Shown here: piece by piece, positions 13,396 through 37,444 of the stretch | Numbering within the stretch: position 1 is the first letter of the stretch | Layout: each line of letters starts with the position of its first letter | Assembly: GCF_963921235.1 (NCBI RefSeq) | Contig: NC_086097.1 | Span: 27,406,001-27,470,000 of the forward strand | Origin: Mobula hypostoma | Taxonomy: Eukaryota | Length of the DNA stretch: 64,000 nucleotides | Reading direction: 5' to 3' | The notes under the pieces: generated by a model | What the model was told of the DNA's origin: nothing | The model's database searches: none | The model's input: only the letters and a program-made list of their open reading frames with translations | Position numbers and translations under genes: made by a program

Positions 13396-13439
13396 AAACA
13401 ATCAAATAAATAAACAAGTAATATCAAGAATATGAGATG

Positions 13440-17174: not shown

Positions 17175-18930
17175 AGAAACAGAAACATAGAAAACCTACA
17201 GCACAATACAGGGACTCCAGCCCACAAAGCTGTACCGAACATGTCCCTGCCTTAGAACTACCTAGGCTTACCCATAGCCCTCTATTTTTCTGAGCTCCAT
17301 GTATTCATCCAGGAGTCTCTTAAAAGACTCTATCGTATCCGCCTCCACCATTGCCGCTGGCAGCCCATTCCACACACTCACCACGCTCTGTGTAAAAAAA
17401 TCTCCTCTATAACTATTTCGAAACATCTTAAAACTATACCCTCTCGTACTAGCCATTTCAGCCCTGGGAAAAAGCCTCTGACTATCCACACGGTCAATGC
17501 CTCTCATTATCTTGTACACCTCTATCAGGTCACCTCTCATCCTCCATCGCTCCAAGGAGAAAAGGCCAAATTCACTCAGCCTATTCTCGTAAGGCATGCT
17601 CCCCAATCCAGGCAACATCCTTGTAAATCCCTCTGCACCCTTTCTATGGTTTCCACATCCTTCCTGTAGTGAGACAACCAGAATTGAGCACAGTACTCCA
17701 AGTGGGGTCTAACTAGGGTCCTATATAGCTGCAACATTACCTCTTGGCTCTTAAACTCAATCCCACAATTGATGAAGGCCAATGTACCATATGCCTTAAC
17801 CACAGAGTCAACCTGCGTAGCAGCTTTGAGTATCTTATGGACTCGGACCCCAAGATCCCTCTGATCCTCCACATTGCCAAGAGTCTTTCCATTAATGCTA
17901 TATTCTGCCATTTTATTTGACCTACCAAAATGAACTTCCTCACACTTATCTGGGTTGAACTCCATCTGCCACTTCTCAGCCCTGTTTTGCATCCTATCAA
18001 TGTCCCGATGTAACCTCTGACAGCCCTCCACACTATTCACAACACCCCCAGCCTTTGTGTCATCAGCAAATTTACTAACCCATCCTTCCACTTCCTCATC
18101 CAGGTCATTTATAAAAATCACGAAGAGTAGGGGTCCCAGATCAGATCCCTGAGGCACACCACTGGTCACCGGCCTCCATGCAGAATATGACCCGTCTACA
18201 ACCACTCTTTGCCTTCTGTGGGCAAACCAGTTCTGGGTCCACAGCGCAAGGTCCCCTTGGATCCCATGCCTCCTTACTTTCTCAATAAGCCTTGCATGGG
18301 GTACCTTATCAAATGCTTTGCTAAAATCCACCTACACTACATCTACTGCTCTTCCTTCATCAATGTGTTTAGTCACATCCTCAGAAAATTCAATCAGGCT
18401 CGTAAGGCACGACCTGCCTTTGACAAAACTATGCTGACTATTCCTAATCATATTATGCCTCTCCAAATGCTCATAAATCTTGCCTCTCAGGATCTTCTCC
18501 ATCAACTTACCAACCACTGAAGTAAGACTCACTGGTCTAAAATTTCCTGAGCTATCCCTACTCCCTTTCTTGAATAAGGGAACAACATCTGCAACCTCCC
18601 ATCCTCCAGAATCTCTCCCGTCCTCATTGATGCAAAGATCATCGCCAGAGGCTCAGCAAGCTCCTCCCTCGCTTTCCACAGTAGCCTGAGGTACATTCTG
18701 TCCGGTCCCAGTAACTTATCCAACTTGATGCTTTCCAAAAGCTCTAGCACATCCTCTTCCTTAATTTCTACATGCTCAAGCTTTTCAGTCTGCTGCAAGT
18801 CATCCCTACAATTGCCAAGATCCTTTTCCGTAGTGAATACTGAAGCAAAGTATTCATTAAATACCTCTGCCATCTCCTCCAGTTCCATACACACTTTTCC
18901 ACTGTCACATTTGATTGGTCCTATTCTCTC
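17175..18930 (-). mobile_element. CR1-clade LINE ORF2 (reverse transcriptase), 5'-truncated, with few disruptions
   Basis: Contains DFSKAFDKVPH, GVPQGSDLGPLLFVIFINDLD, SKFADDTK and LVRPHLEYCAQFW across consecutive broken ORFs, and ends in a (ctatgtttc)-type tail near 17175-17195. Confidence 0.92.
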
Positions 18931-19381
18931 ATGTTATTCAATTCCATTTGCAAATCAACTCATTGTAAAGTTAAATAGTCCTACATGGATGCAGGACCTC
19001 CACAACCATCAGACGTATGTCATAAAAGTGCCGGGCAATGACCACTGCTATCAAAAGAGGCATGAACTGGCTGCTGCAACATATGCAAAATGCTAGAGGA
19101 TCTCAGCAAGTCAAGCAGCATCTACAGAGGAGAATGAGGAGGTGTAAACCAGCAATTTTTTTCCCAGGATGGCAATGGCAATACGAGAGGGTATAATTTT
19201 AAGGTTACACCATCTACAAAGAGGTATAAAAAGTCAAAGCTTTGGGCCAAGACCTTTAAAAGGGTCCTGGTGAAGGGTCTTGGCATGAAACAGCAACTAT
19301 TTATACCCCTCCATAGATGCTGCCTGACCTGCAGAGTCCCTCCAAAATTTTGTGTGTGTGTTGCTCCGTACTTCCAACATA

Positions 19382-20906
19382 CAGGTGGCCCCCGCTTCTT
19401 GAACGTTCGCTTTACGAAACTTCGCTGTTACTAAAGACCTACATTAGTCACCTGTTTTCGCTAACTGAAGGTGTTTTCACTGTTATGAAAAAAGGCAGCG
19501 CGCGAAAAAAACAGTGCACGATAAAAGGCAGCACGCGCCCCGTGCAGCCAAGCTCCTCCCCCGGAACTGCATTCTAGCTGGCATTGCTTAAACACATGCT
19601 TCTGAGCAGCCGTTAGCAAGATGAGTTCTAAGGTATTGGAAAAGCCTAAAAGAGCTCGTAAGGGTGTTACGCTTAGCATAAAACTAGACATAATTAAGTG
19701 CTTTGATCGTGGTGAACGAAGTAAGGACAAAGTGAGTTTGGCTTGTGGAAGCTGACGAAGATGATGTTGAAGAGGTTTTGGCATCCCATGACCAAGAACT
19801 GATAGATGAAGAGCTGGTGCAAATGGAAGAGTAAAGGATAACAATTGAAACCGAATGCAGTAGCAAACGGACCAAAAGTGAAGTCGTCCAGGAACTGTAT
19901 GTGAAGCAACTGCATGAGATTTTCGCTGTAATGATTGCAGAAAAGTACGACTTTAATTTTGAAAGGGGTACATAGGTTTAGGGCATATTTGCAGGATGGT
20001 TTGACGGCTTACAAAGAACTGTATGATAGAAAAATGCGCAAGGCTAAGCAGTCAAGCATACTGTCGTTTTTCAAGCCTTCCACATCAGCCACAGCAGACG
20101 ATGAACCTCAACCTTCGACATCGAGGCAGGCAGACATAGAAGATGATGACCTGCCTGCCCTAATGGAAACAGACGATGATGAGATGACACCCCAGTGTCC
20201 CACCACAATGCAGCGGTAGCCGGGATGCACCCAACACATCTTTAAGAAAAGAGCCGAAATAAACAAGCTAATTAATTAGGTGCCACCCGGCACATAATTA
20301 ATTAGCTTGTTTATTTCGGCTTTTTTCTTAAAGATGTGCTGGGCGTGCCCCGGCTACCGCTGCATTCTCCGCAGATCGGTATCGGTTCGCTGCCCGGAGG
20401 TTGGGGTTCACTGCTCCCCCCCAACCTCCGACGACTCAGTCTAACACACCATCATCAGTGTGCTCGGCGCTGTCTTCCCGATTCCGGTAAGTGATACTAC
20501 ACTGTACATACATTATTTCTACTTTATATCGGCTGTGTATTTTTACGTGTTATTTGGTATGATTTGGCAGCTTCATAGCTTAAAGGTTACTGGAGAGAGT
20601 GTTTCTGCCGAGAGCGCTTGCGAGAGATTTTTGCTACGGAGAATAGTGCGGCAATAATTGTAGAAAAGTATTTCTACTTTTATAGGCTGTGTATTTATCA
20701 CATCATTCCTGCTTTTACTATATCTTACTGTTATTTTAGGTTTTATGTGTTATTTGGCATGATTTGGTAGGTTATTTTTTGGGTCTGTGAATGCTCACAA
20801 ATTTTTCCTATATAAATAAATGGTAATTGCTTCTTCACTTTATGACATTCCGGCTTATGAACCGTTTCATAGGAATGCTGTACCTTCGGATGGTGGGTGA
20901 AACCTG
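19382..20906 (+). mobile_element. Internally deleted Tigger/pogo DNA transposon
   Basis: Bounded by TA|CAGGT...ACCTG|TA with imperfect TIRs. MSSKVLEKPKRARKGVTLSIKLDIIKCFDRGE (CENP-B/psq-type HTH start, ATG at 19621) abuts the acidic C-terminal remnant DEDDVEEVLASHDQELIDEEL; the DDE core is missing. Confidence 0.85.
20207..20366. repeat. 160-bp near-perfect inverted repeat (about 78-bp arms, 4-nt loop)
   Basis: AATGCAGCGGTAGCCGGG...AATTAATTAGGTGCC accc GGCACATAATTAATT...CCCGGCTACCGCTGCATT, with only a handful of mismatches. Confidence 0.95.
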
Positions 20907-20951
20907 TATACAGAATTGTGTTTATAACTTTAAGGTTATTGGAAGAAAGTG

Positions 20952-21773
20952 CAGTGGATTCTGGTTAATTGGGACACATCAAGACCAGTACATTTTGGCC
21001 CAATTAGCTGAAGTTTCATGGAAATAGTTAAAAATGTATAAAAATGTCAAACTACCATTTAACTAAATAACAAAGTATGTATTTAAATGAAATACAGAAC
21101 AATTTAGAATACTAGCAATTTTACTACAATATTATAAAACTGTGTATTAGTTCCTAATAGTTATTGACAGAGGAATTAAACTGGTGTGCGCTGCCGTGTT
21201 CTTTTGATTGAGTGTAAATTAATAAAATCAGTTCATACACCTGGTGCAGATAATGGACTGTCTTCATACAATGCTTATGATGATTGCATCTCCAAGTCTT
21301 CAACCTTATTATAACATTCAAGATGATTGTCAATACCTTTAAATTATTCATAGTTTTTAATTTGTTGAAGTAGTGAAATCATCTCATTTTCATTCCTGAC
21401 ACGTCCGGCACATCCAACCCTGAATACTTGAAACTGCAGTGAGCTAAACAGTTCAGAATTGTATTACCGCTCATTTCTCACCAACTATTAGTGACAAAAA
21501 TCACTGCTTTTTGAACACAAACACATGTACTGACATTATTTAATCTAATCTAATCTAATCTATTTAAAAAGGGTCTGCTCCAAACATGGTGTAGTGTATA
21601 ATGCAATTGATGCTAATTCGAAACTTCGGCATCTGTCCTAGTTCAGTGGCATAGTGTGGAAAATAAATGAAGGGAATCCCAGCTATTTTCTGGATTAGGT
21701 TTGTTCTTTAAAAACTGGCCTAAATAAATTGGTGTCTTGATTAACTGATGGCCCAATTGACTGGAATCCACTG
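20952..21773 (-). mobile_element. Non-autonomous Tigger-like DNA transposon nested in a CR1 3' fragment
   Basis: TIRs are CAGTGGATTCTGGTTAATTGGG and reverse complement CAGTGGATTCCAGTCAATTGGG, with TA on the right flank. It splits the CR1 segment ggaagaaagt|atatggaggatgtcac. A minus-strand remnant reads EMISLLQQIKNYE*FKGIDNHLECY. Confidence 0.8.
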
Positions 21774-23570
21774 TATATGGAGGATGTCACAGGTAGCTTT
21801 CTTACACAGAGAGCATTGGGTGTGTCAAACATGCTGCCAGAGATGGTGGTAGAGGCAGATACATTAGTAACATTCAAGGGACTCTTCGATAGAGACATAG
21901 GAGAGAGAAAAATGCAGGGCCATGTGGGAGTGAAGGGTTAGACTGGTCTCAGATTATGTTAAAAGCATAGCACAAGATTATGGGCTGAAGGGCTTGTACT
22001 GTTCTAAGTTCCATGTCATAAACAGTTGACATTTTGGGCCAAGACCCTTCATCAGGTCTGGAAAGGAAGACGCCAGAATATTTACGTATTCCTGTCTATA
22101 GATGCTGCTCGATTTGCTAAGTTCTTCCAACATTCTGTGTTTGTGCTTGTTGCTGCAGAATCTCTTGTTTTTTTTGAACTGCCTGCCTTTGACAATCATG
22201 GCTTTACCACCGCCAGCAATAACTAGTACCCAGGTAGTCACATAAATACTTCTAGAGCAAGTCTATTCGCTAAAAGAAAAATAAAAATATTTCCTTTCAA
22301 AGGATTTTGCATTTAGTATCAGTATACTGAAAACATAGGTGCAAGATTTATGCTCTGTGAATTGACCTTCAAGTCACAAGGAATGTCTTCCAGCAAGCCT
22401 CATGATTAAATGTTATACGCTCATGGTACTTTGTCTTTATTGTGTCATTTTAATCAGTTTCATCTGGATTTGTGCACCTTTTGCTGGGAAAAATGTAATT
22501 TATCAAGAAAGGCTTCAAAAATTAAGTAAAACCAACATCTCTTTTCCTGAAAGGTTCCATTTAAAACAATTGTTTTTGTTTGAATTTGGTTGAGATTATT
22601 GAAAAACAGGTGGCAAAGCTGAACGCGATAATGCTGAAAATTAGGCATAAAAACTGAAAATGTTGGAAATATTCAGAGGTGCAATTAAGCATTTGGACTT
22701 TGTCAACAGTGGACCTTTCAGAGTTGAGGCCCATTTCATCAGAATATTCTCTCTCTCCCTCTCCCTAAAGATGCTTAAATTGCTGTGTACTCGGACTATT
22801 TTCCATAGATCATATCTCTGCACTCTATTTAAGCAGTACTTGGTTGTCTACCTTCAGGTCAGACGATTGTGGGCTTAAGCCCTATTCATGAGGTTTAGTG
22901 TCATCGAGTCAAACAGCATGGAAAGTCCTCGGTCCAACTCATCCATGCTGATCAAGAAGCTTATCTAAGCTTGTTCCATTTGGTTGACCCATATCCCCTA
23001 AGCTTTCCCTGAGTCTTTTACATCTTTTACATGTTATTGTACCAGCCTCAAGCACTTACGCTGGCAGCTTGTTCCATGTAGGCACCAGCATTTGTATAAA
23101 GACCTCAGATCCCTTATAAATCTTTGTCTTTTCACCTTAAACATTATCCCTCCAGTTTTAGACTCCCCTATCCTGAGAACAGGACTGCGTACATTCACCT
23201 TATCTATACCTCCCCATGATTTACACCTCAGTCCTTCATCCCAAGGAATCAATTCCAGGTTGACCAACTTCTCTCTAGGACCCAGTCCCTGAATCCTGGC
23301 AATATAAAACATTTCTGATTCCTTTCTAGCTTCCCACAGTAGGGTGAACAGGGTGAGCTAAGCCATACACAATAATGGAAATGAAGCCTCACCAATGCTT
23401 TGTACAACTGTAATATAAGATCACAACTTCTATTCTTTGTGTCCTGACTAATGAAGTGCCCTGACTAAATGGCTTCTTATTACCCTTTTGACCCGAGGCT
23501 TGAGTACAGAAAGCTAGGCTTATACTCATGTAGCAGTGAGAAAGCTGATAAGGTGGCTAACAAGGATATG

Positions 23571-23616
23571 CTGCCTGGCCTGCTGCGTTCACCAGCAACT
23601 TTTATGTGTGTTGCTT
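23571..23616 (+). mobile_element. 46-bp Penelope-like terminal insertion inside a CR1 fragment (CR1 about 23545-24235)
   Basis: Nearly identical to the PLE terminus at 28534-28580. TSD aaggatatg at 23562-23570 and 23617-23625. Confidence 0.8.
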
Positions 23617-26600
23617 AAGGATATGGTGTGTTGGCCTTCATTAGTTGAAGGATTGAGTTCAAGAGCCACGAGGTAATGTTGCAGCTCTATAAGACTACGG
23701 TTAGAACACACAAAGTATTGTATTCAATTCTGGTCATCTTATTATAGAAAGGATTTGAAACTTTTAGAGAGGATGTAGAGATTTACTAGGATGCTGCCTG
23801 GATTCGAAAGCATGTATTATGAGGAAAGATTGAGTGAACTAGGGCTTTTCTCTTCAGCATGGAGGAGAGGTGACTTGATAGAGGCATATAAAAAGCATAA
23901 ATGGATTGGACTACCAATGTCTTTTTCCCAGGTGGAAATAGCTAATACAAGGGGGCATAATCTTAAGGTCACTGGAGGAAGTTATAGAGGAGGGGATGTC
24001 AGAGGCAGGTTTTCTACACAGAGAGTGGTGGGTGCATTAAATGTGTTGCTGGGGTGGTGGAAGAGGCAGATACAATAGGGGCATTTAAGAAGCTCTTAGA
24101 TAAGCACATGGATGATGGAAAAATGGAGGGTTATGTGGGAGGGACGAGTTAGATTGATCTTGGAACAGATTAAAAGGTTGGCACAACATTGTGAGCTGTA
24201 GGGCCTTTATTGTGCTGGAGGGTTGTATGTTCTATGTAAGTGCAATTGTGCTTTCTGGATTGAAGGATTAAATCGAGTGAGACCTGAACTGTATCAGACC
24301 GATTGTGAGAAAATGCAATTGCGCATGTGGCCGATTGATCACATGGTGAATCGATTGGGTATCCTATGGATGAGGCACTCTCCTTTGGGTGCAGGCTTCT
24401 GAGTGTGCCTAACTTCATCTTGATGGGCCTAGTTCATCGCTCTTGTACTGTAGGTTGCCCAGTGTGTACAGTGACGGAACATTTCATAGTAAAAATGCTT
24501 AATCATACTACTCTGTTGTCGTTCATGTCCCATGCATATGAAACAAAACCCAACTGCCGTTTCAAATGGCCTGTCCCAGCCAACCAACATTCTTTAAAAA
24601 AACGAATTATCTCATTTCTGTTTGTGGAACCTTGCTGCATGCAAAGTAGCTACCTTGTGTTGTAACAGCAATTACATTAAAATTATCATTGGTTGCAAAT
24701 ACCTTTGAGACATTCCAGTCTAAAAGGATGCCTGTCTTTCATTCCTTTCTGCTGTTTAGGCTCCAAGGATGAGCAAGATTACGACTCTCTACTTTGTAAA
24801 CATCATTAGAACTGATGGTTGAAGACCAAAGTTGGCTAGTTCAGAGGTTGAAGCCTTTGGTTCGGCTTGTCCAGAGGATGGAGGTCTGTGAGTCTGGGTC
24901 AGGGGGACGGGGTGGGGGTGTCAGAGGCCTGATGTCTGTGAGTATGAGATTTTGGAGGGACTGGCCTGGAGGGGGTGTGTGTGTGCGCGCGCGCGTAGGC
25001 AGGAAGATGGGGAAGGAGCTTGTTATGCTGATGATGTTTTTGCTGTTTGTGTTGTTCAACTGAACATCGTGGGCATGCCATGTTGGCACCGGAATGTGTG
25101 GTGACACTTGTGGGTTGCCCTAAGCACATCCTAAACCGTGTTGGTTGTTAATGCAAACAAAGCATCTCACTGTAGGTTTTGACGTACAGGTGATAAATGT
25201 TAAGTGTTAAACTTTGAACAAGTCTGTATTGATAAATGCTTCTTCAAAGACTGTGAGTCTGGCTAAGAGGGAGAAAGTTTCACTTGAGTGCTGGGGCGCT
25301 GGTGCTGTTGCAGGGAAGGGATTAAAACATTAGTAACACAATGTGCAAGCTGTTCTTCCTACAATGTGGCATTGGCCCAGGAGATACTGCAGTCATCCTC
25401 CTCGTCATTAAGGAATGAGTGGAGAGACAAGAGAGATGAACCTCTCTGGAAAAGGTCAGCAAATATATGTTAAAATAAAATATCACTGTGTGAAGAGTCT
25501 CTCCACTGAAATGAACATCCAAGTACATTGTCATTCAATAGATTTAAGCAATCCACGGCACTCGAGTTGAATTAATTCATATATTTCATTATGAGTCTGA
25601 GGAGGGTTGTTGTGTCACCAAAGACGCTAGCAAATTTCTACAGATAAATCACTGTCTGGTATGGAGGGGTCAATGCACAGGATCGGAAAAAGTTACAGTA
25701 AGTTGTAAACCCAGCTAGCTCCATCATGATCACTAGCCTTCCCAGCATTGAGGACACCTTCAAAAGGTGATGCCTGAAACAAGCAGATCCATTGCTACCA
25801 TCAAGGAGGAGCCTGAAGGCACACACTCAACATCTTAGGAATGGCTTCTTCTCCTCCGCCATTAAATTTCCGAACAGACAATGAATCAACCCCTGAACAC
25901 TACCTCACTATTTTGTTCTCTTTTTGCACTATTATATATACATATTTTTTCTTATTTTAATTTATTGTATATTTTATGCATCGCACTGTACCGCTGCCAC
26001 AGAACAACAAATTTCATGACATATTGTCAGCGATAATAAACCTGATTCTGATTCTCTATCACAGTTTATTTTATCCTTAATGTTCTTTCTATGGTGCAAA
26101 ATACATTGGTGCATTAACTCATAAGTGTGCAATGAACCAGATTTGATTAGGGACCTTAAGGTAAAGGATCCCTTAGGAGCAGTGATCATAATACGATAAA
26201 ATTACCTCTGAAGTTTGAGAGGGAAAAGCTAAAATCAGATGTTTCAGTATTATATTGGAATAAGAGGAACTACCAAGGCAAGAGAGAGGAGATGTACATA
26301 GGTGACCAAGGAAATGTATTACATGTCTAACTCAATAAAACATGCTCTTATGAATAATAAGAAAATTAGAGTAGAAATTGACCCCTCAACTCTGCCCACC
26401 AATCAGTATATGCATGGCTATTCTGCCACATGCTTCATCTCTTCTATGTCAGTTCCCCACCACTCCCAATAAAGTCTCTAACCTATGTTTAATTATCTCC
26501 AGTTCCACTAGCCTCTGGGGGAGAGAATTCCAGAGATTCACCATCCTCTGTGAGAAGTTTCCATATACCTCAGTTTCTCATGGCTCAATGCTTGAACCCA

Positions 26601-26805
26601 TCTGCCCAACCCCAGTGTTGTTCTAACAGCATAGGCCTCTATGTTCTTTTCTCTTTCAAGATTGTTTATTGTCATTCTTCGGTAATTACGTGTACAGAGA
26701 ATGAAATGATTGTTACTCTGGATCTAATACAACACACTTATTTATACATACAATATGCACAAAGAACACAATAAAAAAACAACAAAAACACAATAAATAT
26801 AAACT

Positions 26806-27230
26806 TGGTGGCCACTTGTACAATGTACAGTTAGAAATAAGAGCAGAAATTAGTTAGAAATGTCATCTAAATGACTTTGACTGTAGAATGATTGTTGGGG
26901 TCAGATGGAGTGGTTTGAGTTTCTCAGAAACTGCTGATCTCCTCGGATTTTCATGCACAGCAGCCTTTAGAGTTTATACAGAATGATGCGAAAAACAAAA
27001 AAGCATCCAGTAAGCGGCAGTTCTGTGGGCAAAAATGCTTTGTTAATGAGAGAGGTCAGAGGCAATAGTCAGACTGGTTCAAGCTGACAAGAAGGCCACA
27101 GTAACTCAAATAAACACATGTGACCATAGTCATGTGCAGAAGAGCATCTCTGAATGCACAACACGTCAAACCTTGAAGTGGACGGGCTACAGCAGCGGAA
27201 GCAGCACCACCAGACCTGTGCAGTATTTCT
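26806..27230 (+). mobile_element. Tc1-like transposon remnant (transposase N-terminal HTH)
   Basis: Reads KCHLNDFDCRMIVGVRWSGLSFSETADLLGFSCTAAFRVYTE*CEKQ then RQFCGQK...RLVQADKKATVTQI. A TIR-like ctcagtggccacttta lies near 27408. Confidence 0.75.
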
Positions 27231-27501
27231 GACATTAATATTTTTAAAGATAGACTCAATCAAATCGATTTAGGGGATCTCGTCAAAAAAGCTTACTTTA
27301 CAATTTAACTCCCACGTCGTTCACACCGACTGCGCGTTATAACAGCAGTCCGGCAGTGCTTGTGCAGCACCAAGTAGAAGCAGAAGACCACAAATGTACA
27401 GAAATATTCTCAGTGGCCACTTTACTAAGTACCTCTTATCAAATGGTCATTGAGTGTAAATATTCAAGCAATCCAATAAAACACAATGTACGAATATCAC
27501 A

Positions 27502-27624
27502 AACAACAGGAATTCTGCAGATGCTGGAAATTCAAGCAACATACATCAAAGTTGCTGGTGAACGCAGCAGGCCAGGCATCATGCTGCCTGGCCTGCTGCG
27601 TTCACCAGCAACTTTGATGTATGT
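27502..27624. mobile_element. Palindromic mini Penelope-like insertion (two inverted terminal pieces)
   Basis: Perfect arms of about 42 bp (27537-27578 / 27585-27626). Perfect 15-bp TSD tgtacgaatatcaca at 27487-27501 and 27625-27639. Confidence 0.85.
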
Positions 27625-27826
27625 TGTACGAATATCACAGCTGTGATATACACAGAGTGATTGTATGTATTTAAAGTGATGCTAGGTGATGTGTATGTGG
27701 TGATGAGGGGTGCAGTGATAGGAGTGGGACAAACAGTCCATAAGCAGGGTGCGTGGGATCCTTCATGATATTCATCAAAGTTGCTGGTGAACGCAGCAGG
27801 CCAGGCAGCATCTCTAGGAAGAGGTA

Positions 27827-27864
27827 CAGTCGACGTTTCGGGCCGAGACCCTTCGTCAGGACTA
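27827..27864 (-). ncRNA. Minimal type I hammerhead ribozyme motif with intact core
   Basis: Minus strand reads UAGUC CUGACGA A GGGU-CUCG-GCCC GAAA C GUC|GACUG. It has stem I AGUC/GACU, the CUGANGA and GAAA boxes, a 4-bp stem II, a palindromic ACGU helix III and a GUC cleavage triplet. Confidence 0.8.
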
Positions 27865-28478
27865 ACTGAAGGAAAAGCTAGTAAGAGATTTGAAAGTGGG
27901 AGGGGGAGGGGGAGATCCGAAATGATAGGAGAAGACAGGAGGGGGAGGGATGGAGCCAAGAGCTGGACAGGTGATTGGCAAAAGGGATACGAGAGGATCA
28001 TGGGACAGAAGGCCCAGGGAGAAGAAAAGGGGGAGGGGGCGAAAAAGCCCAGAGGATGGGCAAGGGGTATAGTGAGAGGGACAGAGGGAGAAAAAGGAGA
28101 GAGAGAAAAAAAAGTGTGTATATAAATAAATAACGGATGGGGTACGAGGGGGAGGTGGGGCATTAGCGGAAGTTAGAGAAGTCAATGTTCATGCCATCAG
28201 GTTGGAGGCTACCCAGATGGAATATAAGGTATTGTTCCTCCAACCTGAGTGTGGCTTCATCTTTACAGTAGAGGAGGCCGTGGATAGACACATCAGAATG
28301 GGAATGGGATGTGGAATTAAAATGTGTAGCCACTGGGAGATCCTGCTTTCTCTGGCGGACAGAGCGTAGGTGTTCAGCAAAATGATCTCCCAGTCGGCGC
28401 TGGGTCTCGCCAATGTATAGAAAAGGATATCCCCCTCCCCCTCCCACTTTCAAATCTCTTACTAGCTCTTCTTTCAGT

Positions 28479-28516
28479 TAGGCCTGATGAAGGGTCTTGG
28501 CCTGAAACGTCGACTG
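28479..28516 (+). ncRNA. Hammerhead ribozyme motif, conserved boxes intact but stems weakened
   Basis: UAGGC CUGAUGA A GGGUCUUGGCCU GAAAC GUC GACUG, with a G-A mismatch in stem I and a G-U pair at the base of stem II. Confidence 0.6.
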
Positions 28517-29355
28517 TGCCTCTTCCTAGAGATGCTGCCTGGCCTGCTGTGTTCACCAGCAACTTTTATGTGTGTTGCTTGAAATTCCAACATCTACAGA
28601 TTTCCTCATGTTTGCCTTCAAGATATTGTTGGCGTTTTTCCTGAACCTGTATGTCCTTGATGGTGGTGGGTTGGGGGGGGGGGGTTGGGGTTAGGGTAGT
28701 GCTGGTGATGAATTGGGGGGTTGGGGTTAGGGTAGTGCTGGTGATGAATTGGGCAGATTTATCTACCCGTTGAGAACCCTCGTGTTAACTGTAATGCAGT
28801 TTCTTTACCAAACACTGATATAGCATGTCAAGATGCTCTTCACTGCACATCTGTAAAAGGTCATGATGTGCATAGTTGATCCAGCTCTTCTCCACAAGTT
28901 GAAGTACTCCATTCCACAACTTTCCAGGGTTTTAAAATCCTGTAGTAAGTCACCTCTCCACTGTTATATTTTACTGATTAAGTAGTTTCTCCCATTACTG
29001 GTAAAATCATTGCAACTCTTTCCTAAATTTCTCTGGTGTTTCCATATCCATTTTTATAATATGACTGTTAGAACTGTACATTGTACAAACACACTCTAAA
29101 CCATGTTAAGCATAAATTCACTATCACTCAATTCCATGTAACTACAAAGGAATTCCAGTGCTTAGTTTGCATTTGTTCTGCCCTTATTAGCTCTTATCAT
29201 CATTGCTCCTCCCTCCCTAAGTTGTTTTTAAAATATACGACCTAATTTGTCTTGGCAAAATTGAATTTCTGACCATGATCAGTGTCAAAGCTTCAAGAAC
29301 AAGCATTGCCACGGTGCATTTATTAATATCTTGTTGCCTTCCTTAGTATTGACCA

Positions 29356-30580
29356 TCCTCTCCAAATCTGCCTCTAACTTGCACCCTGCCCATAAATTCA
29401 CTCAGTCCATTTCTGACACCTCCCTCCCCTTTCTCAATCTCTCTGTCTCCATCTCTGGAGACAAACTGTTGACCCCTGTCTCCTGTAAAAATGCTATTCC
29501 CTTTTCTCAGTTTCTTTGTCTCTGCCATATCTGTTCCCAGGATGTAGGCTTGTTTCCAAGAATGTCCTCCTTCTTCAAAGAATGGGCTTTCCTTTCTCCA
29601 CCGCTGATGCTGCCCTGACCCGCATCTCCACCATTTCCTCGATATCTATGTTCACTCCACCTTTCTGTCACCGTAACAGTTCTCCTTGTCCTTACCTACC
29701 ACCCCATGAGCCTTCATGTCTGACATCATTCTGTGCAATTTCCACCACCTCCAAAGGAATTGCACCACCAAACATACCTTTAACTTCCCCCCCTTCACTT
29801 TCTACAGGAATTGCTCCCTCCGTGATCCTCCTGTTCATTCTTTCCTCCCTACTAATCTCCCTCGTGGCACTTATCCCTGCAAGCGGCTGAAGTGTGACAT
29901 CTGACCATTCACCTCTCCCTTATCTCCCCTCAAGGTCCCAAACAGTCCTTCCAGGTAAGGCAACAATTCACCTGTGAACCTACTGGGGTCGTCTATAGTG
30001 TCTGGTGCTCCCAATGCGGCCTCCTCTACATTAGTGAGACCTGTCATAAATTGGGGCACCACTTCATTGAGCAACTACACTCCAAAAGCGGAACTTCCTA
30101 GTGGCCAACCATTTTAATTCCAATTCCCATTCGCATTCTGACATGTTGGTCCACAATGTGCCACAATGAGGCCTCCCTCAGAGTGCAGGAGCAACACTTT
30201 ATATTCTGTCTGGGTAGCCTCCAACCTGATGGCATGAATATCAATTGCTCCTTCCAAATATAAAAAAAAATTATCTCCCCCTCCCCTCTTCCTTTGTTCC
30301 CCAGTCTAGCCGCTTTCTCTTCTCACCTGCCTATCACCTTTCCTTGGGGACCCTTGTCCTTCTCTCCTCTCCTATACGATTCTTTCCTCTCCAGCCCTTT
30401 CCCTTTCCTACCTACCTATCTTACCCTGTCACCTTCTAGCTAGTCCTCTTTCCCCTCCCCTCTTCTTCCCCCTTCCTTTCCAGTCCTGAAAAGAGTCTCA
30501 GCCTAAAACATTGACCGTTTATTCATTTCCACACATGCTGCCTGACCTGCTGTTCCTCCAGCGTTTTGTGTGCGTTGGTC
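29356..30580 (+). mobile_element. Penelope-like element 3' half (RT thumb, GIY-YIG, pLTR), decayed
   Basis: Contains ASNLHPAHKFTQSISDTSLPFLNLSVSISGDKL, PVSCKNAIPFSQFL, GVVY..WCSQCGLLYISET and LGSLQPDGMN remnants, plus a degenerate hammerhead at 30481-30517. Confidence 0.85.
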
Positions 30581-31254
30581 TCCAACATCAACTTGGTCTC
30601 CACCGCAAATTAACCAAGGTGTCTTTTGAATTCAAAATTCTGGATTATTAATATGAATATGAATAGCATGATTTTTCTGATCTTACTAAGTCCAAAATGC
30701 TGCTTCAATGCAAGGTTAAGAACAACCACAGTTGTTCCTTTAGCGTCAACAACAATAAAATTAAGTTTATTTCTAATCTAACTCTACAACCTCATCTATC
30801 ATACCAAGGACATGACAGAAGGCCTCATCTGTTCCTACCTTCACATAAGGAGACAATACAGATTTCAGGATCTGTGGACTGTTTATTAAGAGAAATTCAT
30901 TGAGAAGGTCTCCTTACAGTGCACTGATGGGCTACCCCCAAACTACATGAATTCCATCCACTTGGTGACCACAAAGGACATTATCCTCACCATACATTAA
31001 CTCCCAAGAGAAATGCAGGGTACAGCATCAGCCTCCATGGCTTTGTGAACCTTTGACTCTGTCAACTGAGAGTGACTGACCCTGCAAAAGGGGCATGTGA
31101 GACGGCACTGAGAACTACAGTTTAATGATTCGGGAGCGTTGCACGAAAGTCCAAAGTAAACATCAGAAAAGGGGGCACCACCATCCTCCTAGCCTACCTT
31201 GTACAACACTGGCCTCGTCAATAACCCAACGAGTTGGTTAAGAGCAGCACAAAA

Positions 31255-31560
31255 GCTTAGCAGTTGGAGTAATGCTATTACACTGCCAGTGACCCAGGTT
31301 CAATTCCTATGTTGCTTGTAGATTCTCCTTGTGACCACATGTGTTTCCCCTGGGTACTCCGGTTTCCTCCCACATTCCAAAGACATTCCAAAGGTTAGGG
31401 TTAGTGAGTTGTGGGCATGCTATGTTGGTGCTAGAAGAGTGGCAACACTTGCAGGCTGCCCCAGCACATCCTTGGACTGTGTTGGTCATTGATGCAATTG
31501 ACACATTTCACTGTATGTTTCAATCTACAAAGTGACAAATGAAGCTTATCGCACTACCTT
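31255..31560 (+). repeat. tRNA-derived V-SINE (tail type B)
   Basis: B box ggttcaattcc, V-domain ctccggtttcctcccacattccaaagac and tail gggcatgctatgttgg... Confidence 0.75.
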
Positions 31561-34500
31561 TTTATCTAATCTCATCAAAGAGCACTGCCACAAGAAAGCA
31601 GCATCCACTATCAAGGAGCCCAACTATGCAAGCCATGCTCTCTTCTCACTACTACCATTGAACAGGAGGTACAGCAGTTTTAGGTCCCTTCACTCATTTC
31701 AACTCTGAACTGATTTCAAAACCTGTAGACTCTCAAATTCATGTTTTCAACATTATTTATTTATTTATTTATATTGATTTTATTTGCATAATTTGTCTTC
31801 TTTTCCACACTGGTTGATAATGTCTTTATGTATAGTATTTCATAATTCTGTTGTATTTCTTTATTGTCCTGTAACTGCTGCAAGAAAATGAATCTCAAGG
31901 TTGTACAAATGTGTAAATGGTGGCATGTATGTACTTTGATAATAAATTTACTTTGACTTTGATTTCAGAATCCAATGGAGGAAAGTCATCCTTGAGCCCA
32001 AGGGACTGCTTAAGAAGTTCCTGATGAAGGGTTTTGGCTCAAAACGTTGACTGTTTATTCTCCCCCATAGATGCAGTCTGACTTGCTGAGGTCCTCCAGC
32101 ATTTTGCCGGAGAAGATCGCTTGCTGACACCCAGCTCTTCATTTACAGTTTCACGCTTCACTGCTGTTGCTCTGCAGGATTACCCATCTCATTTAAGGTT
32201 CTGCATATGCAACACTAATCTTCAGCTTGGAGCTAGAAAGATTCAGGCTATATGCTGCTTGTTTCATGATGATACTGACTTCAGATTCAGAAGTCTTTAT
32301 CACACGCACATCGAAACACAGTGAAAGGTGTCATTTGCGTTAATACCCAAGTCAACCCAAGGATGTGCTGGGGGCAACCTGCAAGTGTCACCACACATTC
32401 TGGCACCAACATTCCCACTCTGTTCAGCAGAACTACACAAGCAACAACAGCAGAACTAAACCAGTCAACAACAAAGTCCCTTTCCCACCCACCCATCTAA
32501 CCCCTCACACACACAGACAGGCTTCCAATCCCAAGACAGGCTGCCCCTGGGTCGCCAGTCCTCAGCCCTGGACTCTCCGATTGGCAGACATCAGACCTCC
32601 AACCTCTAGATCCTGACCCGGACTTGCAGGCTCAATTTTCAGGCTTTTACCTCCAGACTTGATCTTCGGATTTGCCTTCTGGATGTCACCCACCTCTGAG
32701 TGTCAACCCCAGAACTAGTCAATCACAGGAAGAGGAAAGGCATTACTGGTACTGCTTCAGGCTTTCGATTCTGGTCTCTACCACCCCACTCTGCCTCCTC
32801 TATAGCCCCCGTGAAGGGCCTCGGCTCAAAACATCAATCACCCTCTGAACTAAAGTGGGATATCTTCACTCATCTCAATACTGAAATAATTCCACAACCT
32901 ATGGACTCACTTTCAAGCACTCTGCAAATCATGTTCTCAATATTAATTAATTAATTATCTATCTATCTATTTATTTATTGTCTTTCTTTGAATTTGCAGT
33001 TTGTCTCCTTTTGTACTTTGGTTGCTTGTTTATCTTTGAGTGTAGTTTTTTATCGATTCTATTATACTTCTATGTTCTACTGTGAATGCCCGCAGGAGAA
33101 TGAATCTCAGGGTAGTAAATGGTGGTATACATGTCCATTGATAATAAATTTATTTTGAATGTTGAACTGCTTACTTCCTTCCATTGAAACTGCTCGACCC
33201 GCTGAGCTCACCCAGCATTCTCCTCCCTGACTTCTCCCCAAGGCTGCTAACTCAAGCTGAATGTGATGTGGATTAGGAGATGAAAATGATGGGGGTGGGG
33301 CGGTGTTGGAGGGGGAAAGATGTGGCGGTGGGGGCAATATCTGGCGGGCGTTTGAAGCCAGAAGTGATTGGGCATAGAGTTGGCAGAGGGCTGTTGTTGG
33401 TTGGTTACAAGCAGGGATGGGCTGGTCAATGGAGTCAACATAGAACATTACAGCACAGTATAGGCCCTTCAGCCCACGATGTTGTGCTGACCTTTTAACC
33501 AACTCTAAGATCAATCTAACCCTTCCCTTCTCCATAGCCCTCCATTTTCCTATCACCCTTGTACCTACCTAAGAGTCTCTTAAATGCCCCTAATGTACCC
33601 AATGGTGTTTTATTTCCTCTTATTTTGCTTCCAGATTTATTCTGCATTTCAAGTGCAGAGTTATGACTCACAGTAATAAGCATCCAGAAAATGGTTGAAG
33701 GAACTATTTTTGGAGAAAGTTTAAATGCTGTTCATTGATGAGAACGTCCTCCATACATTCGCACATACAAGAAAGTGAAACCTTGGCAAGCAGGAAGATG
33801 TCAGTGTTGCAGGGTAATCATCTGTATGTGCATGATCAGAAGGTGTTTACCTCCTCTGTATGTCTAAGCTGCTTATTTCACTTGCTGGAATGTTGTGCAA
33901 GCAGTCCTCCAATTCAACAGCACGGTTTGTTTTTTTAAAGCTTTATACCTCCCCTTGCACCTTTCCCCAGGATGAAAAGGTGTAAGCTGGAGATGTGCAG
34001 CCCACTGAACAGGTTAGGCCTCTCTTTACCACCGGAAGTTTAAAGTTCAAAGGTTCATTTATTACCAAAGTATGTAGGCAGTATGTTACCATACAACCAC
34101 CTTGAGAAACAGGTAGTAACAGAAAATGGAAAAGAAAGTGATTAATATTCCACTTTGTTAACCATTAAAGCTTAAATATTTTCAGTTTGATGGTTTTTAT
34201 ACTCCATGGTTTGGAAGTATAAAAGACAAATCTCAGAGTTCTATACTGCATACATACTTTGATAATAAATGAACCTTTTAACCCTTGAAATCAACCATGA
34301 TGGAAAGCCGGAGCAGACTCGATGGGCACAGCCCTCCCCACCACTGAGGACATCTTTAAAAAGCAATGCATCAAGAAGTGGCATCCATCATCAAGGAGCC
34401 TCACCATAAGGGTACATACCCTCTTCTTGATACAACTATCAGGGAGGAGGTCCTGGAATCTGAAGACCCACACTCAATGATTCAGAGACAGCTTCTTCCC

Positions 34501-37444
34501 CTGCACCATCGGATTTCTGAATGGTCCAGGAATATATGAACACTACCAAACTATTCATGTTTCTTAAACTATTTAATTTTGTAATTTACAGTTAACTTAT
34601 GTCCTTGCACTGTTCTGCCGCCACAAAACAACAAATTTCATATCATGTATGTCAGAAATAATAAATCTGAGTCTGATTATAAACCTCATAAAACCAAGGG
34701 CATATTGAAACAGCTAATGTAGTCTGCTGTAGTCTTCATAGCTAAATATGACAATGAAATGCAATGAGACAACTGTCTGGAGCTGAACTATTTCAATGGT
34801 GTTGATTGGGGGATAATTGATGCTCAGAGTGGTGTTAAAATAACATCCTGAGCAAAGAAACAAGGTATCAATTTGACATAAAAATCACATTTGATTCACT
34901 ATTGTTAATTGACTGAAATTCTCAGAGACCCCTTTTTGCTGTCAGTTAATAAAACAGGCAAAATACTATCACAACTATTTCTAAACTCTGTGGCTTTTTA
35001 CTTGTGTTCAATTCTGGAATAGAAAGCTAGCAACAGCAATAGTGACCATGAAGCTTGGAATTACTGCAAGAAAGTTAACTGATTCCTTACCTAAACCAAC
35101 CAGCACAAACCTAACCACTACAACTTAGCAACACTATAACCACTTTGATCACTTTGCACCGCAATGGACTTCCTTCTTTCTTGTAGAAATTGAGCATAAT
35201 ATTAGGTTTTGTGAATGTTGCTTATCTGATGCTATGTGCCTGTGATGCTTGCTGCGAGATTTTCATTGCACCTATGCATTCATGTAGAATACAGAACAGT
35301 ACAGTACAGGACCAGGCCCTTTGGACTACATTGTTGTGCTGAACTAATTATATTAGTAATCAACTGCTCAACTAAAACTAATCCCCTCTGCCTACACAAT
35401 GTCTCTATCCTTCCATTTCCTGCACATTCATGTGCTTTTCCAAGAGCCTCTTGAATGCCCTGATCTTATTTGCCTCCACCACTGCTCTGTGTAAAAAAAA
35501 CCTGTACCATACATTTCCTTTGAACTTACACGCGCCCCCCCCCGCCCCATCTTAAAAGCATGCCCTCTGGTATTAGATATTTGAACCCTGGGAATTGATA
35601 CCAGCTTCTATGCCTCTCATAATCTTATAAACTTCTTTCCTCAGCCTTTGTCATTCCAGAGAAAACAATCCAAGTTTATTCAACTCCTTACAGCACATAC
35701 CCTCTAATCCAGGCAGCATCCTGGTGAACCTCTTCTGCACCCTCTCCAGATCTTCAAAATCATTCTTACAATGGGGTGGCTAGAACTGAAATGGGCGTCT
35801 GACAATAAACTCAGCTTTGGTTCAGCATGGTCTGTCAGAGAAATCAACTTGCTCTCCACATCCAGTCTAATGAATTGGTTATTCGTGGGTCACTACAATG
35901 TGATTGACTTGTGATTGCTCAAAGATAACTGAGGTGGATAATTAACATTGACCTAATCAGAAACCAATGAACAAATCAAACAGAATAATGCAAATATCAC
36001 TCAGAAATTAACTGAATACAGCTTAAATAGAAACAAAACAATTTAATACTTCAATCAACAAATCTTGAAGACTGGAGTCTATAATTATCAATAAATAAAA
36101 TATAATTAACAAGCATTCATTGACTCTATTTACATTAATAGAGCTATACAGTATGAAGCAGGCTCTTTGGCTCAACTTACCCATGTTTAAACTAATCTCA
36201 TTTGCCTGGGCTTGGTTCATTTCTCTTTTGTCCATTTGTCTTGTCAACGTTGTTAAAGTACCGGCCTCTTACACTCACCACCCTTTGCAGGAAGAAGTTG
36301 CCCCTCAAGTCCTCTTTAAGTCTTTCCCTTTTCACCTTACACCTTTAGTCTTTGATTCCTTTTTCCTGGGAAAAAGACACTGTGGATTCAGCCTATCTAT
36401 GCTCCTCAGGATTTATTATCCATCATGGAGGAGGCATAGGAGCCTGAAGACATGTGCTGAATGTTTCTGAACAGCTTCTTCCCCTCTGCCATCAGATTTC
36501 TGAATGGACAGTGAACCCATGAACACTAATTCAGTACTTTTCCCTCTCTTTTTGCATTACTTATTTAATTTATTTTTATATGTATTTCTTGTAATTTATA
36601 GTTTGTATTACTATGTACTACAATGTACTGCTGCCACAAAACTACAAATTTCATGACATATGCCGGTGATATTAAACCTGATTCTGATTTTGATTCCTTC
36701 TGTCTCCTATGCCCAAAGAACCTAAGTCCTAGCCTGCCCAACTTCTCCCTATAACTCGGGCCCTCAAGCCCTGGCAACATGCTTGTAAATTTTTGCACTG
36801 ATGTGGGTGGTCCACACACTCCTTCATACATTAATGGCACCGAGGTTGAGAGGGTGGAGAGTTTCAAGGAGTGGATATCACCAATAGCCTGTCCTGTAGA
36901 CAACATAGCTAAGAAAGCTCACTGTCATCTCTTCCTCCTTAAGAGGCTAAAGGAATCTGGATTGCCCCTGTGATCCTCACTAATTTTTATAACTGTACCT
37001 TTTGGATGTATCACGGCTTGGTATAGCAACTGCTTTGCTCGTGACCACAAGAAACTGCGGAGGGTTGTGGACACAGCTTGGTACATGACAGAAACCAGCT
37101 ACCCCTTTATAGACTCAGCCTACAGTTCTCGCTGCCTCCAACATAATCAAATAATCAAAGATCCCAGCGCTCTAGACATTCTGCCATCTCTCCCCCCCCC
37201 CAACCCCCCATTGGGCAGAAGATACAAAAGCTTGAAAACACATACTACCAGCCTCAAAGACAGCTTCTATCTGACTGTTGTAGGACTATTGGTTGATCCC
37301 CTCGTACAATAAGAAGGAATCTTAATCTCACAATCTACTTCATCGTGGTCTTGTGCATTACTGTGTGCCTAAACAACACTTTGTAAGTGTAACACTTTAT
37401 TCTGCATTGTTGTTTTCCCTTGTGTTGTACCACATACCCATTAT

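What the first reader, a model, noticed from the sequence alone, without database searches (positions are those of the whole stretch)
27827..27864. Intact minimal hammerhead ribozyme on the sense strand of the TTC7B pre-mRNA intron
Seen: the minus (TTC7B sense) strand reads UAGUC-CUGACGA-A-GGGUCUCGGCCC-GAAA-C-GUC-GACUG. All hammerhead core nucleotides and paired helices I and II are present, with an extra A after A9 and a loopless palindromic ACGU helix III. The predicted cut lies between 27832 and 27831. Established: Penelope-like element pLTRs carry minimal type I hammerheads, and such motifs cleave best as dimers paired through the palindromic helix III. Inference: this is the only fully intact copy I found, and it is transcribed with the host gene. 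It could cleave the 33.5-kb intron co-transcriptionally, affecting splicing or releasing PLE RNA ends.
Basis: partly seen in the sequence, partly recalled or inferred. Interest (0 to 1): 0.8.

Follow-up and report, generated by a model that had tools for sequence, protein, structure and literature searches.

The report
Ordinary Penelope-element minimal hammerhead copy
The hammerhead-ribozyme motif is really there, but it is one of tens of thousands of near-identical copies left by a Penelope-like jumping gene in this genome, and nothing suggests that this copy cuts the host gene's RNA.

Summary
Window 27864..27827 (minus strand) carries every invariant hammerhead core nucleotide, a 5-bp helix I, a 4-bp helix II, one extra A after A9 and a loopless ACGU helix III. 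C17 is at 27832.

It lies in a TTC7B intron on the sense strand. Flanking exons match TTC7B, and the intron 41182..7714 is 33,469 nt with GT..AG ends.

It is the published "min-HHR" of Penelope-like elements (PMC4209133). It sits 298 nt after the stop of a 5'-truncated GIY-YIG ORF and 59 nt before the element's 3' end.

It is not special:
- The identical 38-mer occurs 4,395 times in the 3.48-Gb genome.
- The core-intact pattern occurs 68,117 times.
- In 216.7 kb of unselected DNA, 6 of 24 copies are complete.

The proposed intron self-cleavage is unsupported:
- A monomer cannot form helix III.
- In a dimer, this copy's cut site needs a partner with an intact core. The other three sense-strand copies in the intron have core lesions.
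- An inverted copy 506 nt upstream pairs with the whole arm in the predicted fold.
- Published monomers are inactive (PMC4209133, PMC11167929).

No usable RNA data were available. Verdict: a real motif of an already known kind. Low interest.

The parts
27827..27864 (-). Minimal type I hammerhead (min-HHR): helix I 5' strand 27864-27860, core C3-A9 27859-27853, extra A 27852, helix II hairpin 27851-27840, G12-A14 27839-27837, A15.1 C15.2 G16.2 U16.1 27836-27833, C17 27832, helix I 3' strand 27831-27827
   Evidence: sequence; 0 matches in shuffles; all core positions, helix I 5/5, helix II 4/4
27831..27832 (-). Predicted scissile bond, 3' of C17 (27832) and 5' of G1.1 (27831). It is predicted from the motif only; cleavage was not shown.
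   Evidence: hammerhead numbering as given in PMC4209133 fig. 1 legend
27773..27830 (-). 3' tail of the element. Homology among genomic copies ends 59 nt after C17, at 27773. The tail is conserved across subfamilies together with the hammerhead.
   Evidence: alignments of genomic copies end at query position 787; mean column conservation: 60 nt upstream 0.55, hammerhead 0.85, 60 nt downstream 0.77
27773..28424 (-). 5'-truncated Penelope-like element copy: end of the ORF, 3' UTR, hammerhead and tail
   Evidence: 88.6-93.0% identity over 496-657 nt to 12 longer genomic copies; 3 further long matches at 82.8-88.9% over 395-667 nt
28163..28477 (-). Open frame holding the C-terminal part of the PLE endonuclease domain (..LYIGETQRRLGDHFAEHLRSV..). 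The stop is at 28165-28163, 298 nt before the hammerhead.
   Evidence: No Pfam hit for this fragment. The longer copy L018 scores GIY-YIG E 1.9e-4, 22.1 bits against a cut-off of 22.6. Homologue P0005 has RVT_1 plus GIY-YIG.
28425..28570 (+). Inverted partial copy (hammerhead plus tail) lying head to head with the truncated element. It is 93% complementary to 27773-27918 over 146 nt. Its own hammerhead is at 28479-28516, core 28484-28511.
   Evidence: inverted repeat I1
41183..41336 (-). TTC7B exon upstream of the intron, matching TTC7B residues 652-702; the donor GT is at 41182-41181
   Evidence: E 8.3e-25
7508..7713 (-). TTC7B exon downstream of the intron. The PDB match covers residues 697-771. 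The acceptor AG is at 7715-7714 and the exon starts at 7713.
   Evidence: E 1.2e-38; (the paralogue on contig 22 is only 48.6% identical)

Best explanation
This is a by-product copy of the minimal hammerhead that Penelope-like retroelements (PLEs) carry near their 3' end. A PLE inserted into a TTC7B intron in the gene's orientation as a 5'-truncated copy (28424 to 27773), with a short inverted copy of its own 3' end attached head to head (28425-28570). In the active element, the hammerhead plus the 59-nt tail form a conserved 3' module. According to the literature, it works only when two copies pair through the palindromic ACGU (a double hammerhead), probably with help from the element's protein, to process or mark PLE RNA. 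In this solitary intronic copy the motif is most likely inert. It cannot close helix III alone. Its own cut site would need a partner RNA with an intact core, and none exists in the intron. It is also predicted to be locked in a long duplex with the inverted arm, which is transcribed 506 nt before it. Shown here: the motif, its family, its position in the element and in the gene, the copy numbers and the predicted folds. Inferred: that it is inactive in the host transcript, and what the module does in the element.
For: Motif and coordinates. Above chance. PLE context: a GIY-YIG-type ORF end lies upstream on the same strand. Longer genomic copies extend that ORF, with GIY-YIG at E 1.9e-4. Of the 46 longer homologues found, most carry RVT_1 and some also carry GIY-YIG in the precomputed Pfam column; this was confirmed for P0005. 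Family size: 68,117 core-pattern matches and 0 control matches; 4,395 copies of the identical 38-mer; 42,891 copies of the commonest 28-mer, which has U11.1; 53,258 copies of a 31-nt tail word. In 216.7 kb of unselected DNA, 24 copies span the motif: 8 are core-intact and 6 are complete. The element ends 59 nt after C17. Hammerhead plus tail are conserved across subfamilies whose upstream sequence differs. Head-to-head inverted arms are common in the family, at 10 of 30 loci, and PMC4209133 also reports motif pairs on opposite strands 100-700 bp apart. Inertness: the other sense-strand copies in the intron carry core lesions. These are 9262-9289 (G5A and G12A), 15390-15417 (A15.1G) and 22028-22055 (G12A). 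The base-pair logic of the double hammerhead puts C17 of one copy in the junction built by the other copy's core (0 crossing pairs). The 826-nt fold pairs the whole arm with the upstream antisense arm in both the MFE and the centroid: -372.5 kcal/mol, z -21.7, 0 of 20 shuffles as good. The 38-mer alone folds with G5-G8 paired to C15.2-C17, which is an off state: -12.9 kcal/mol, z -1.27. The double-hammerhead pairing scores -16.7 kcal/mol, against -34.1 for the best dimer. Literature: single min-HHRs showed no detectable cleavage and dimers showed low cleavage (PMC4209133, parts 1-2 read). The Anolis PLE hammerhead cut only with protein, and no RNA-seq reads began or ended at its site (PMC11167929, passages read).
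Against: No cleavage or RNA-end data exist for this locus or this family, so inactivity is inferred. Nearest-neighbour energies ignore the tertiary contacts of the hammerhead core. Co-transcriptional folding may let the local motif form before the long duplex does. A partner could come in trans from another pre-mRNA molecule or from one of the tens of thousands of other copies, if they are transcribed. The element's protein might assist, as in Anolis. This copy keeps all its CpG sites and the canonical G10.1-C11.1 pair, so nothing in its sequence disables it. Pfam did not recognise the window's own ORF fragment. The best GIY-YIG score in a longer copy is 0.5 bit below the curated cut-off. This copy has no RT and no direct terminal repeat.
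Confidence: 0.88

Rival explanations
1. One reading: the intact sense-strand hammerhead cuts the TTC7B pre-mRNA inside the 33.5-kb intron during transcription. This would affect splicing or release PLE-derived RNA ends.
For: The core and helices I and II are intact. The motif is on the sense strand of the intron. Dimers of such motifs do cleave at a low rate in vitro (PMC4209133).
Against: Helix III has no loop, so a monomer cannot form the three-way junction. The 38-mer's best fold is an off state. No core-intact sense partner lies in the intron, and a partner with a dead core cannot cut this copy's site. The upstream inverted arm sequesters the motif in the predicted fold. Single motifs were inactive in vitro (PMC4209133). 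The Anolis PLE hammerhead needed protein and left no RNA-seq ends (PMC11167929). With 4,395 identical copies, intactness reflects recent insertion and not selection at this locus.
Confidence: 0.04
2. Cutting in trans: the intronic copy pairs with RNA from other PLE copies, or with a second pre-mRNA molecule, through ACGU and the swapped helix I. It is then cut when PLE transcripts and PLE protein are abundant.
For: The double hammerhead is a domain-swapped dimer with 14 intermolecular pairs and no pseudoknot. There are tens of thousands of matching partners in the genome. Protein-assisted cleavage is reported for an Anolis PLE (PMC11167929).
Against: No expression data were available. The active pairing is 17 kcal/mol less favourable than the best dimer. 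The long intramolecular duplex competes with it. No in vivo ends were seen in Anolis (PMC11167929).
Confidence: 0.05
3. The feature that matters to the host is not the ribozyme. It is the 146-nt inverted repeat, which would form a long double-stranded RNA hairpin in the intron. By recalled analogy with other intronic inverted repeats, such a hairpin could be a substrate for RNA editing or could alter splicing.
For: Arms 27773-27918 and 28425-28570 are 93% complementary with 506 nt between them. The predicted fold scores -372.5 kcal/mol, z -21.7.
Against: No RNA data exist. Such head-to-head pairs are common in this family (10 of 30 loci), so this one is not special. The A>G differences come from repeat contigs of other organisms and cannot be read as editing.
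Confidence: 0.03

Closest known systems
Minimal hammerheads (min-HHR) in the terminal repeats of metazoan Penelope-like elements (Cervera and De la Pena 2014, PMC4209133; parts 1-2 read)
   Same: Type I topology. All core nucleotides are present. There is an unpaired nucleotide between A9 and 10.1, a G10.1-C11.1 pair, a short helix I (5 bp), and no helix III loop with palindromic 15.2-16.2. It lies downstream of a PLE ORF on the same strand. The genome holds large consensus families. Pairs of motifs occur on opposite strands a few hundred bp apart.
   Different: Helix II is 4 bp here, against 7-8 bp in Schistosoma and 6 bp in D. virilis. The copy number is far higher than the roughly 4,000 (coelacanth) and 9,000 (Xenopus) quoted there, although the search methods differ. 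In 63% of this genome's core-pattern copies, position 11.1 is U (42,891 of 68,117).
Hammerhead of the Poseidon element PAc of Anolis carolinensis (Frangieh et al. 2024, PMC11167929; passages read)
   Same: A PLE hammerhead in a vertebrate. The element 'tail' lies beyond the ribozyme. The ribozyme is not active on its own.
   Different: In PAc the ORF start overlaps the hammerhead. Here the motif is seen 298 nt after the ORF stop, and the 5' end of the element is missing. Protein assistance and RT initiation were tested for PAc and not here.
Double hammerheads of newt satellite 2 and avocado sunblotch viroid (Forster et al. 1988; seen only as cited in PMC4209133 and PMC6765202)
   Same: Helix III is weak or absent in the monomer. 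Activity comes through a dimer with an extended intermolecular helix III.
   Different: Those motifs have a short helix III with a loop and occur as tandem repeats or rolling-circle multimers. This copy is solitary.
Conserved intronic hammerheads of amniotes (Rfam HH9 and HH10; recalled, no paper read here)
   Same: A hammerhead on the sense strand of an intron.
   Different: From recall, those are single-copy, conserved between species and fold as stable monomers. Here no Rfam hammerhead model matched, even at E up to 10, and the motif is a high-copy repeat.
Non-LTR retrozymes (preprint 10.64898/2026.07.22.740005; abstract and section 11 part 1 read)
   Same: Hammerhead-bearing non-autonomous relatives of PLE terminal regions. 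They are found in vertebrates other than birds and mammals.
   Different: Retrozymes are tandem arrays. No tandem direct copy is present here; the nearest sense-strand copy is 5.8 kb away and degenerate.

Membership tests
Hammerhead ribozyme | Invariant core C3 U4 G5 A6 N7 G8 A9 ... G12 A13 A14, with A15.1-U16.1 and H17 | tested here: met
   all positions are present, N7 = C and H17 = C.
Hammerhead ribozyme | Helices I and II flanking the core | tested here: met
   helix I 5/5 pairs and helix II 4/4 pairs, each including one U.G.
Hammerhead ribozyme | Helix III closing the three-way junction within one molecule | tested here: not met
   ACGU has no loop; the monomer's best fold instead pairs G5-G8 with C15.2-C17. 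A junction is possible only in a dimer.
Hammerhead ribozyme | Match to a curated Rfam hammerhead covariance model | tested here: not met
   (gathering threshold, whole window: 0 matches). (E up to 10 on 27600-28100: only two lncRNA chance matches).
Hammerhead ribozyme | Mg2+-dependent self-cleavage 3' of position 17 | not testable with these tools
   No bench assay was possible. The runs found are contigs, which cannot show RNA ends.
min-HHR of metazoan Penelope-like elements | Unpaired nucleotide between A9 and 10.1, G10.1-C11.1, and palindromic 15.2-16.2 with no loop 3 | tested here: met
   compared with the list of features in PMC4209133 (Discussion).
min-HHR of metazoan Penelope-like elements | Lies in the terminal region of a PLE, on the ORF's strand | tested here: met
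   the ORF end lies upstream on the minus strand, and the motif is 298 nt after the stop and 59 nt before the element end.
min-HHR of metazoan Penelope-like elements | Many copies forming consensus families in the genome | tested here: met
Penelope-like element (endonuclease-bearing) | ORF with reverse transcriptase followed by a GIY-YIG endonuclease | tested here: inconclusive
   The window copy holds only the ORF's last 86-104 codons, with no Pfam hit. The longer copy L018 scores GIY-YIG 22.1 bits against a cut-off of 22.6. Homologue P0005 (49% identity) has RVT_1 at 29.4 bits, just under the 29.6 cut-off, and GIY-YIG at 25.0 bits, over its cut-off. Most of the 46 homologues are precomputed as RVT_1.
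Penelope-like element (endonuclease-bearing) | Direct terminal repeats (pLTR) from tandem or partial tandem insertion | tested here: not met
   no direct repeat of the arm flanks this copy. It is 5'-truncated and has an inverted arm instead.
Non-LTR retrozyme | Tandem direct repeats, each with a hammerhead | tested here: not met
   there is no tandem direct copy, and the neighbouring copy is inverted.

The most novel reading that the evidence does not exclude
Sense-oriented, core-intact min-HHRs in introns, of which this is one among tens of thousands, can be cut in trans-dimers with PLE transcripts when the PLE protein is expressed. Bursts of PLE activity would then cleave many host pre-mRNAs at defined sites.
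Probability: 0.03. Interest if true: 0.6.

Novelty: already known. Interest (0 to 1): 0.12.

Why it matters
As it stands, this is a clean example of a described class and adds little. Its main use is as a caution. In a genome that holds at least 68,117 core-intact copies, an "intact" hammerhead in an intron says nothing about function at that locus. Two points could interest specialists. First, the family is very large, about one core-intact motif per 51 kb, well above the counts quoted for coelacanth and Xenopus in PMC4209133. Second, the hammerhead plus a 59-nt tail is conserved as one module across subfamilies whose upstream sequence has diverged. That fits the idea that this module, and not the ribozyme alone, is what the element's machinery recognises.

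Tried and rejected
1. Rfam: no hammerhead family matched at the gathering threshold or at E up to 10. I take this as a limit of models that expect a helix III hairpin (recalled), not as evidence against the motif.

2. RNA evidence: the look-up of sequencing runs listed no holder on record as RNA. All 10 runs are Logan contigs with small shares, 0.05-0.22. Laying X1, X5, X9 and X10 on 26000-30000 covered essentially only the repeat parts. The unique stretches read about 0, except roughly 8-10x in X10, which therefore looks like DNA. The table of molecule starts and ends was empty. Contigs cannot show RNA ends, so this says nothing for or against cleavage or expression.

I located the TTC7B exons by tblastn of window ORFs against the paralogue region and by PDB sequence search.

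4. A genome-wide count of intact hammerheads between fixed flanks failed. I used the 216.7 kb already held as an unselected sample.

5. Covariation: only one-sided changes were seen, U.G versus C-G at the outer helix I pair and G-C versus G.U at 10.1-11.1. There were no double compensatory changes, so covariation adds no support. No formal pair count was run.

6. Lunse, Weinberg and Breaker (RNA Biol) is not held. It was seen only as a reference and in a summary sentence in PMC6765202.

7. The search of earlier findings returned nothing for this genome or this sequence.

8. Chance occurrence was rejected.

Full report
**Observation**

The minus strand of window 27864..27827 reads TAGTC CTGACGA A GGGTCTCGGCCC GAAA C GTC GACTG. 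In hammerhead numbering this gives:
- helix I 5' strand UAGUC (27864-27860)
- C3 U4 G5 A6 C7 G8 A9 (27859-27853)
- one extra A (27852)
- helix II GGGU/GCCC with loop CUCG (27851-27840)
- G12 A13 A14 (27839-27837)
- A15.1 C15.2 G16.2 U16.1 (27836-27833)
- C17 (27832)
- helix I 3' strand GACUG (27831-27827)

The motif is far beyond chance:
- The 38-mer with up to 3 mismatches matches once, and 0 times in 100 shuffles.
- CTGANGA-N(4-34)-GAAACGTC matches twice, and 0 times in shuffles.
- A degenerate 28-mer matches 11 times, and 0 times in shuffles.

No Rfam hammerhead model matched, either at the gathering threshold over the whole window or at E up to 10 over 27600-28100.

**What it belongs to**

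An open frame lies on the same strand just upstream, at 28477..28163. It reads ..LYIGETQRRLGDHFAEHLRSVRQRKQDLPVATHFNSTSHSHSDVSIHGLLYCKDEATLRLEEQ.., and its stop is 298 nt before the motif.

Pfam does not recognise this 104-codon fragment. Longer genomic copies of the same element extend the frame. In locus L018, a 291-residue frame scores GIY-YIG at E 1.9e-4 and 22.1 bits, just below the 22.6 cut-off.

A search for longer relatives found 46 proteins of 522-1358 residues. Most are precomputed as RVT_1 and some also as GIY-YIG. I confirmed RVT_1 (residues 291-479) and GIY-YIG (residues 708-751) in P0005, which is 49% identical over 93% of the query. A reverse transcriptase followed by GIY-YIG is the architecture of Penelope-like elements (PLEs) as described in PMC4209133. 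The best named relatives are from sharks.

**Anatomy of the insertion**

I aligned the window copy against 30 genomic copies, each with 1.5 kb of flank. Homology always ends 59 nt after C17, which is window 27773. It starts at different points upstream, the pattern expected for 5'-truncated retroelement copies. The window copy itself is truncated at 28424.

Directly abutting it, at 28425-28570 on the plus strand, is an inverted copy of the last 146 nt of the element. It is 93% complementary to 27773-27918, with 506 nt between the arms.

That inverted copy has its own hammerhead, with core at 28484-28511. All its core nucleotides are present, helix II is 4/4 and helix I is 4/5, with one G.A mismatch.

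Head-to-head inverted arms are regular in this family. Ten of 30 loci have one within 1.5 kb upstream. PMC4209133 also reports pairs of min-HHRs on opposite strands 100-700 bp apart.

**Family size and state**

The genome holding the window has 3.48 Gb in 200 contigs. Counts across it are:

| Query | Copies | Control |
|---|---|---|
| Core pattern CTGANGAAGGGTCTNNGCCNGAAACGTC | 68,117 (33,979 + 34,138) | 0 |
| Identical 38-mer | 4,395 | 0 |
| Commonest 28-mer (U at 11.1 where the window copy has C) | 42,891 | 0 |
| 31-nt word of the tail | 53,258 | 0 |
| Two flank anchors exactly 40 nt apart | 33,415 | 0 |

I also looked at 216.7 kb that was not selected for the motif: the window, four TTC7 loci, and 140 kb around the paralogue. 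There, 42 BLAST hits to the 146-nt arm include 24 that span the hammerhead. Of these 24, 8 have every core nucleotide. Six are complete, meaning core intact, pairing 15.2-16.2, helix I at least 4 pairs and helix II at least 3 pairs.

The commonest core lesions fall at G12 (6 copies) and G8 (4 copies). Both sit in CpG dinucleotides of the consensus.

Across these 24 copies, mean column conservation is:
- 0.55 for the 60 nt upstream
- 0.85 for the hammerhead
- 0.77 for the 60 nt downstream

Several subfamilies with unrelated upstream sequence therefore share the hammerhead-plus-tail module.

**Host gene**

TTC7_N (PF19440) exons lie on the minus strand of the same contig, from 27,783,055 down to 27,555,980. 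The window lies 86 kb further down, which is 3' in the gene's sense.

Within the window:
- The frame 41408..41181 matches TTC7B residues 652-702 (E 8.3e-25).
- The frame 7762..7463 matches residues 697-771 (E 1.2e-38).
- The paralogue on contig 22 is only 48.6% identical over that exon, so this gene is the TTC7B-like one.

The first exon ends at 41183, followed by GT. The second starts at 7713, preceded by AG. The codon split across the junction reads Ala, which fits. The intron is 41182..7714, or 33,469 nt. The hammerhead lies 13.3 kb into it, on the sense strand.

**Would it cut the intron?**

Five points argue against it.

1. Helix III has no loop, so a single molecule cannot close the three-way junction. 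The 38-mer's best fold keeps helices I and II but pairs G5-G8 with C15.2-C17. That buries both the core and the cut site (-12.9 kcal/mol, z -1.27, 23 of 200 shuffles fold as well).

2. Writing out the double hammerhead gives a nested, domain-swapped dimer. Helix III and both helices I are intermolecular, and C17 of one copy sits in the junction formed by the other copy's core (no crossing pairs). Cutting at 27832/27831 therefore needs a partner with an intact core.

3. The other sense-strand copies in this intron are 9262-9289 (G5A and G12A), 15390-15417 (A15.1G and more) and 22028-22055 (G12A and C15.2U). None has an intact core.

4. By nearest-neighbour energies, the double-hammerhead pairing scores -16.7 kcal/mol. 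The best dimer, an extended duplex, scores -34.1, and two separate monomers score -25.8. The commoner U11.1 variant gives -11.5 against -30.3. These energies ignore tertiary contacts.

5. In the pre-mRNA, the antisense arm is transcribed 506 nt before the hammerhead arm. The 826-nt stretch 28585..27760 folds with the whole arm paired to it, in both the MFE and the centroid (-372.5 kcal/mol; shuffles -206.6 ± 7.7; z -21.7).

**Published tests**

- PMC4209133 (parts 1-2 read): a single Schistosoma min-HHR showed no detectable cleavage. Dimeric and trimeric constructs showed low activity. The paper proposes processing of PLE RNA as the role.
- PMC11167929 (passages read): the Anolis Poseidon hammerhead showed no cleavage without the element's protein. 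Catalytic mutants did not affect insertion in vitro. No public RNA-seq reads began or ended at the site.
- Preprint 10.64898/2026.07.22.740005 (abstract and section 11 part 1 read): it relates vertebrate hammerhead retrozymes to PLE terminal regions and finds them under-represented in introns of Xenopus.

**RNA data**

No run on record as RNA holds the stretch, and all listed runs are contigs. Laying four of them covered only repeat parts and gave no table of ends. This leaves expression and cleavage untested.

**Conclusion**

The motif is a genuine, sequence-intact minimal hammerhead of a Penelope-like element. It was carried into a TTC7B intron by a 5'-truncated insertion that has a head-to-head inverted partner. 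It matches the published min-HHR class in the extra nucleotide after A9, the G10.1-C11.1 pair, the palindromic loopless helix III, the short helix I, its position at the element's end, its high copy number and the opposite-strand pairs. Its shorter helix II is the main difference from the examples described.

Its intactness reflects a young, very large family and not selection at this locus. The host-cleavage idea is not excluded by experiment. It is disfavoured by the dimer logic, by the lack of a competent partner in cis, by the predicted sequestration, and by the published behaviour of such motifs. The scan had already met Penelope-type hammerheads on other genomes and judged them known.

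Noticed in passing
window 27773-27864 (-) and the 24 copies: The hammerhead plus the 59-nt tail behind it is conserved as one module across subfamilies whose upstream sequence is unrelated (conservation 0.85 and 0.77, against 0.55 upstream). This suggests the module is what the element's machinery needs, by analogy with the RT initiation region of the Anolis element.
   Followed up: partly
whole genome G000: The family is very large: at least 68,117 core-intact motifs, about one per 51 kb. PMC4209133 quotes about 4,000 min-HHRs for coelacanth and 9,000 for Xenopus, though its search methods differ.
   Followed up: partly
window 27853-27857 with 27832-27835 (-): With N7 = C, the core bases G5 A6 C7 G8 are complementary to C15.2 G16.2 U16.1 C17. 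This helix is part of the monomer's best fold. GUCGAC across the cut site is also a 6-nt palindrome. Both are possible built-in off states. N7 = C is the family consensus.
   Followed up: partly
window 28679-28750 (+): A perfect tandem duplication of a 36-nt unit (GGGGGGTTGGGGTTAGGGTAGTGCTGGTGATGAATT) lies about 110 nt beyond the end of the inverted arm. It is G-rich and contains a TTAGGG-like word (D4).
   Followed up: no
window 27527-27636: A 55-nt perfect-spacing palindrome (91% complementary, 0 nt between arms) is made of two tail fragments of the same element family lying head to head (I5). More tail fragments lie at 27500-27582 and 27770-27811.
   Followed up: no
window 29898-30263 (+), with inverted repeats 28176-28349 / 30085-30250: A second, older PLE endonuclease-domain remnant lies on the plus strand (..GLLYISETCHKLGHHFIEQLHS..). 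It is 77-81% complementary to the ORF part of the minus-strand copy and has a decayed hammerhead at 30471-30562.
   Followed up: no
window 17579-18331 (-): A 251-codon open frame carries an RVT_1 reverse-transcriptase domain (E 1.2e-20). It has many copies in the paralogue region. This is a different, abundant retroelement in the same intron.
   Followed up: no
window 52672-53697 (-): A 342-codon open frame has no Pfam hit but resembles sequence next to PLE endonuclease remnants in locus L044. It is possibly the RT part of another PLE copy in the upstream TTC7B intron.
   Followed up: no
G000 contig 22, 31,395,497-31,601,109 (-): A second TTC7 gene, TTC7A-like, is more compact than the TTC7B-like gene on contig 1. 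Its exon equivalent to window 7508-7713 is 48.6% identical.
   Followed up: partly
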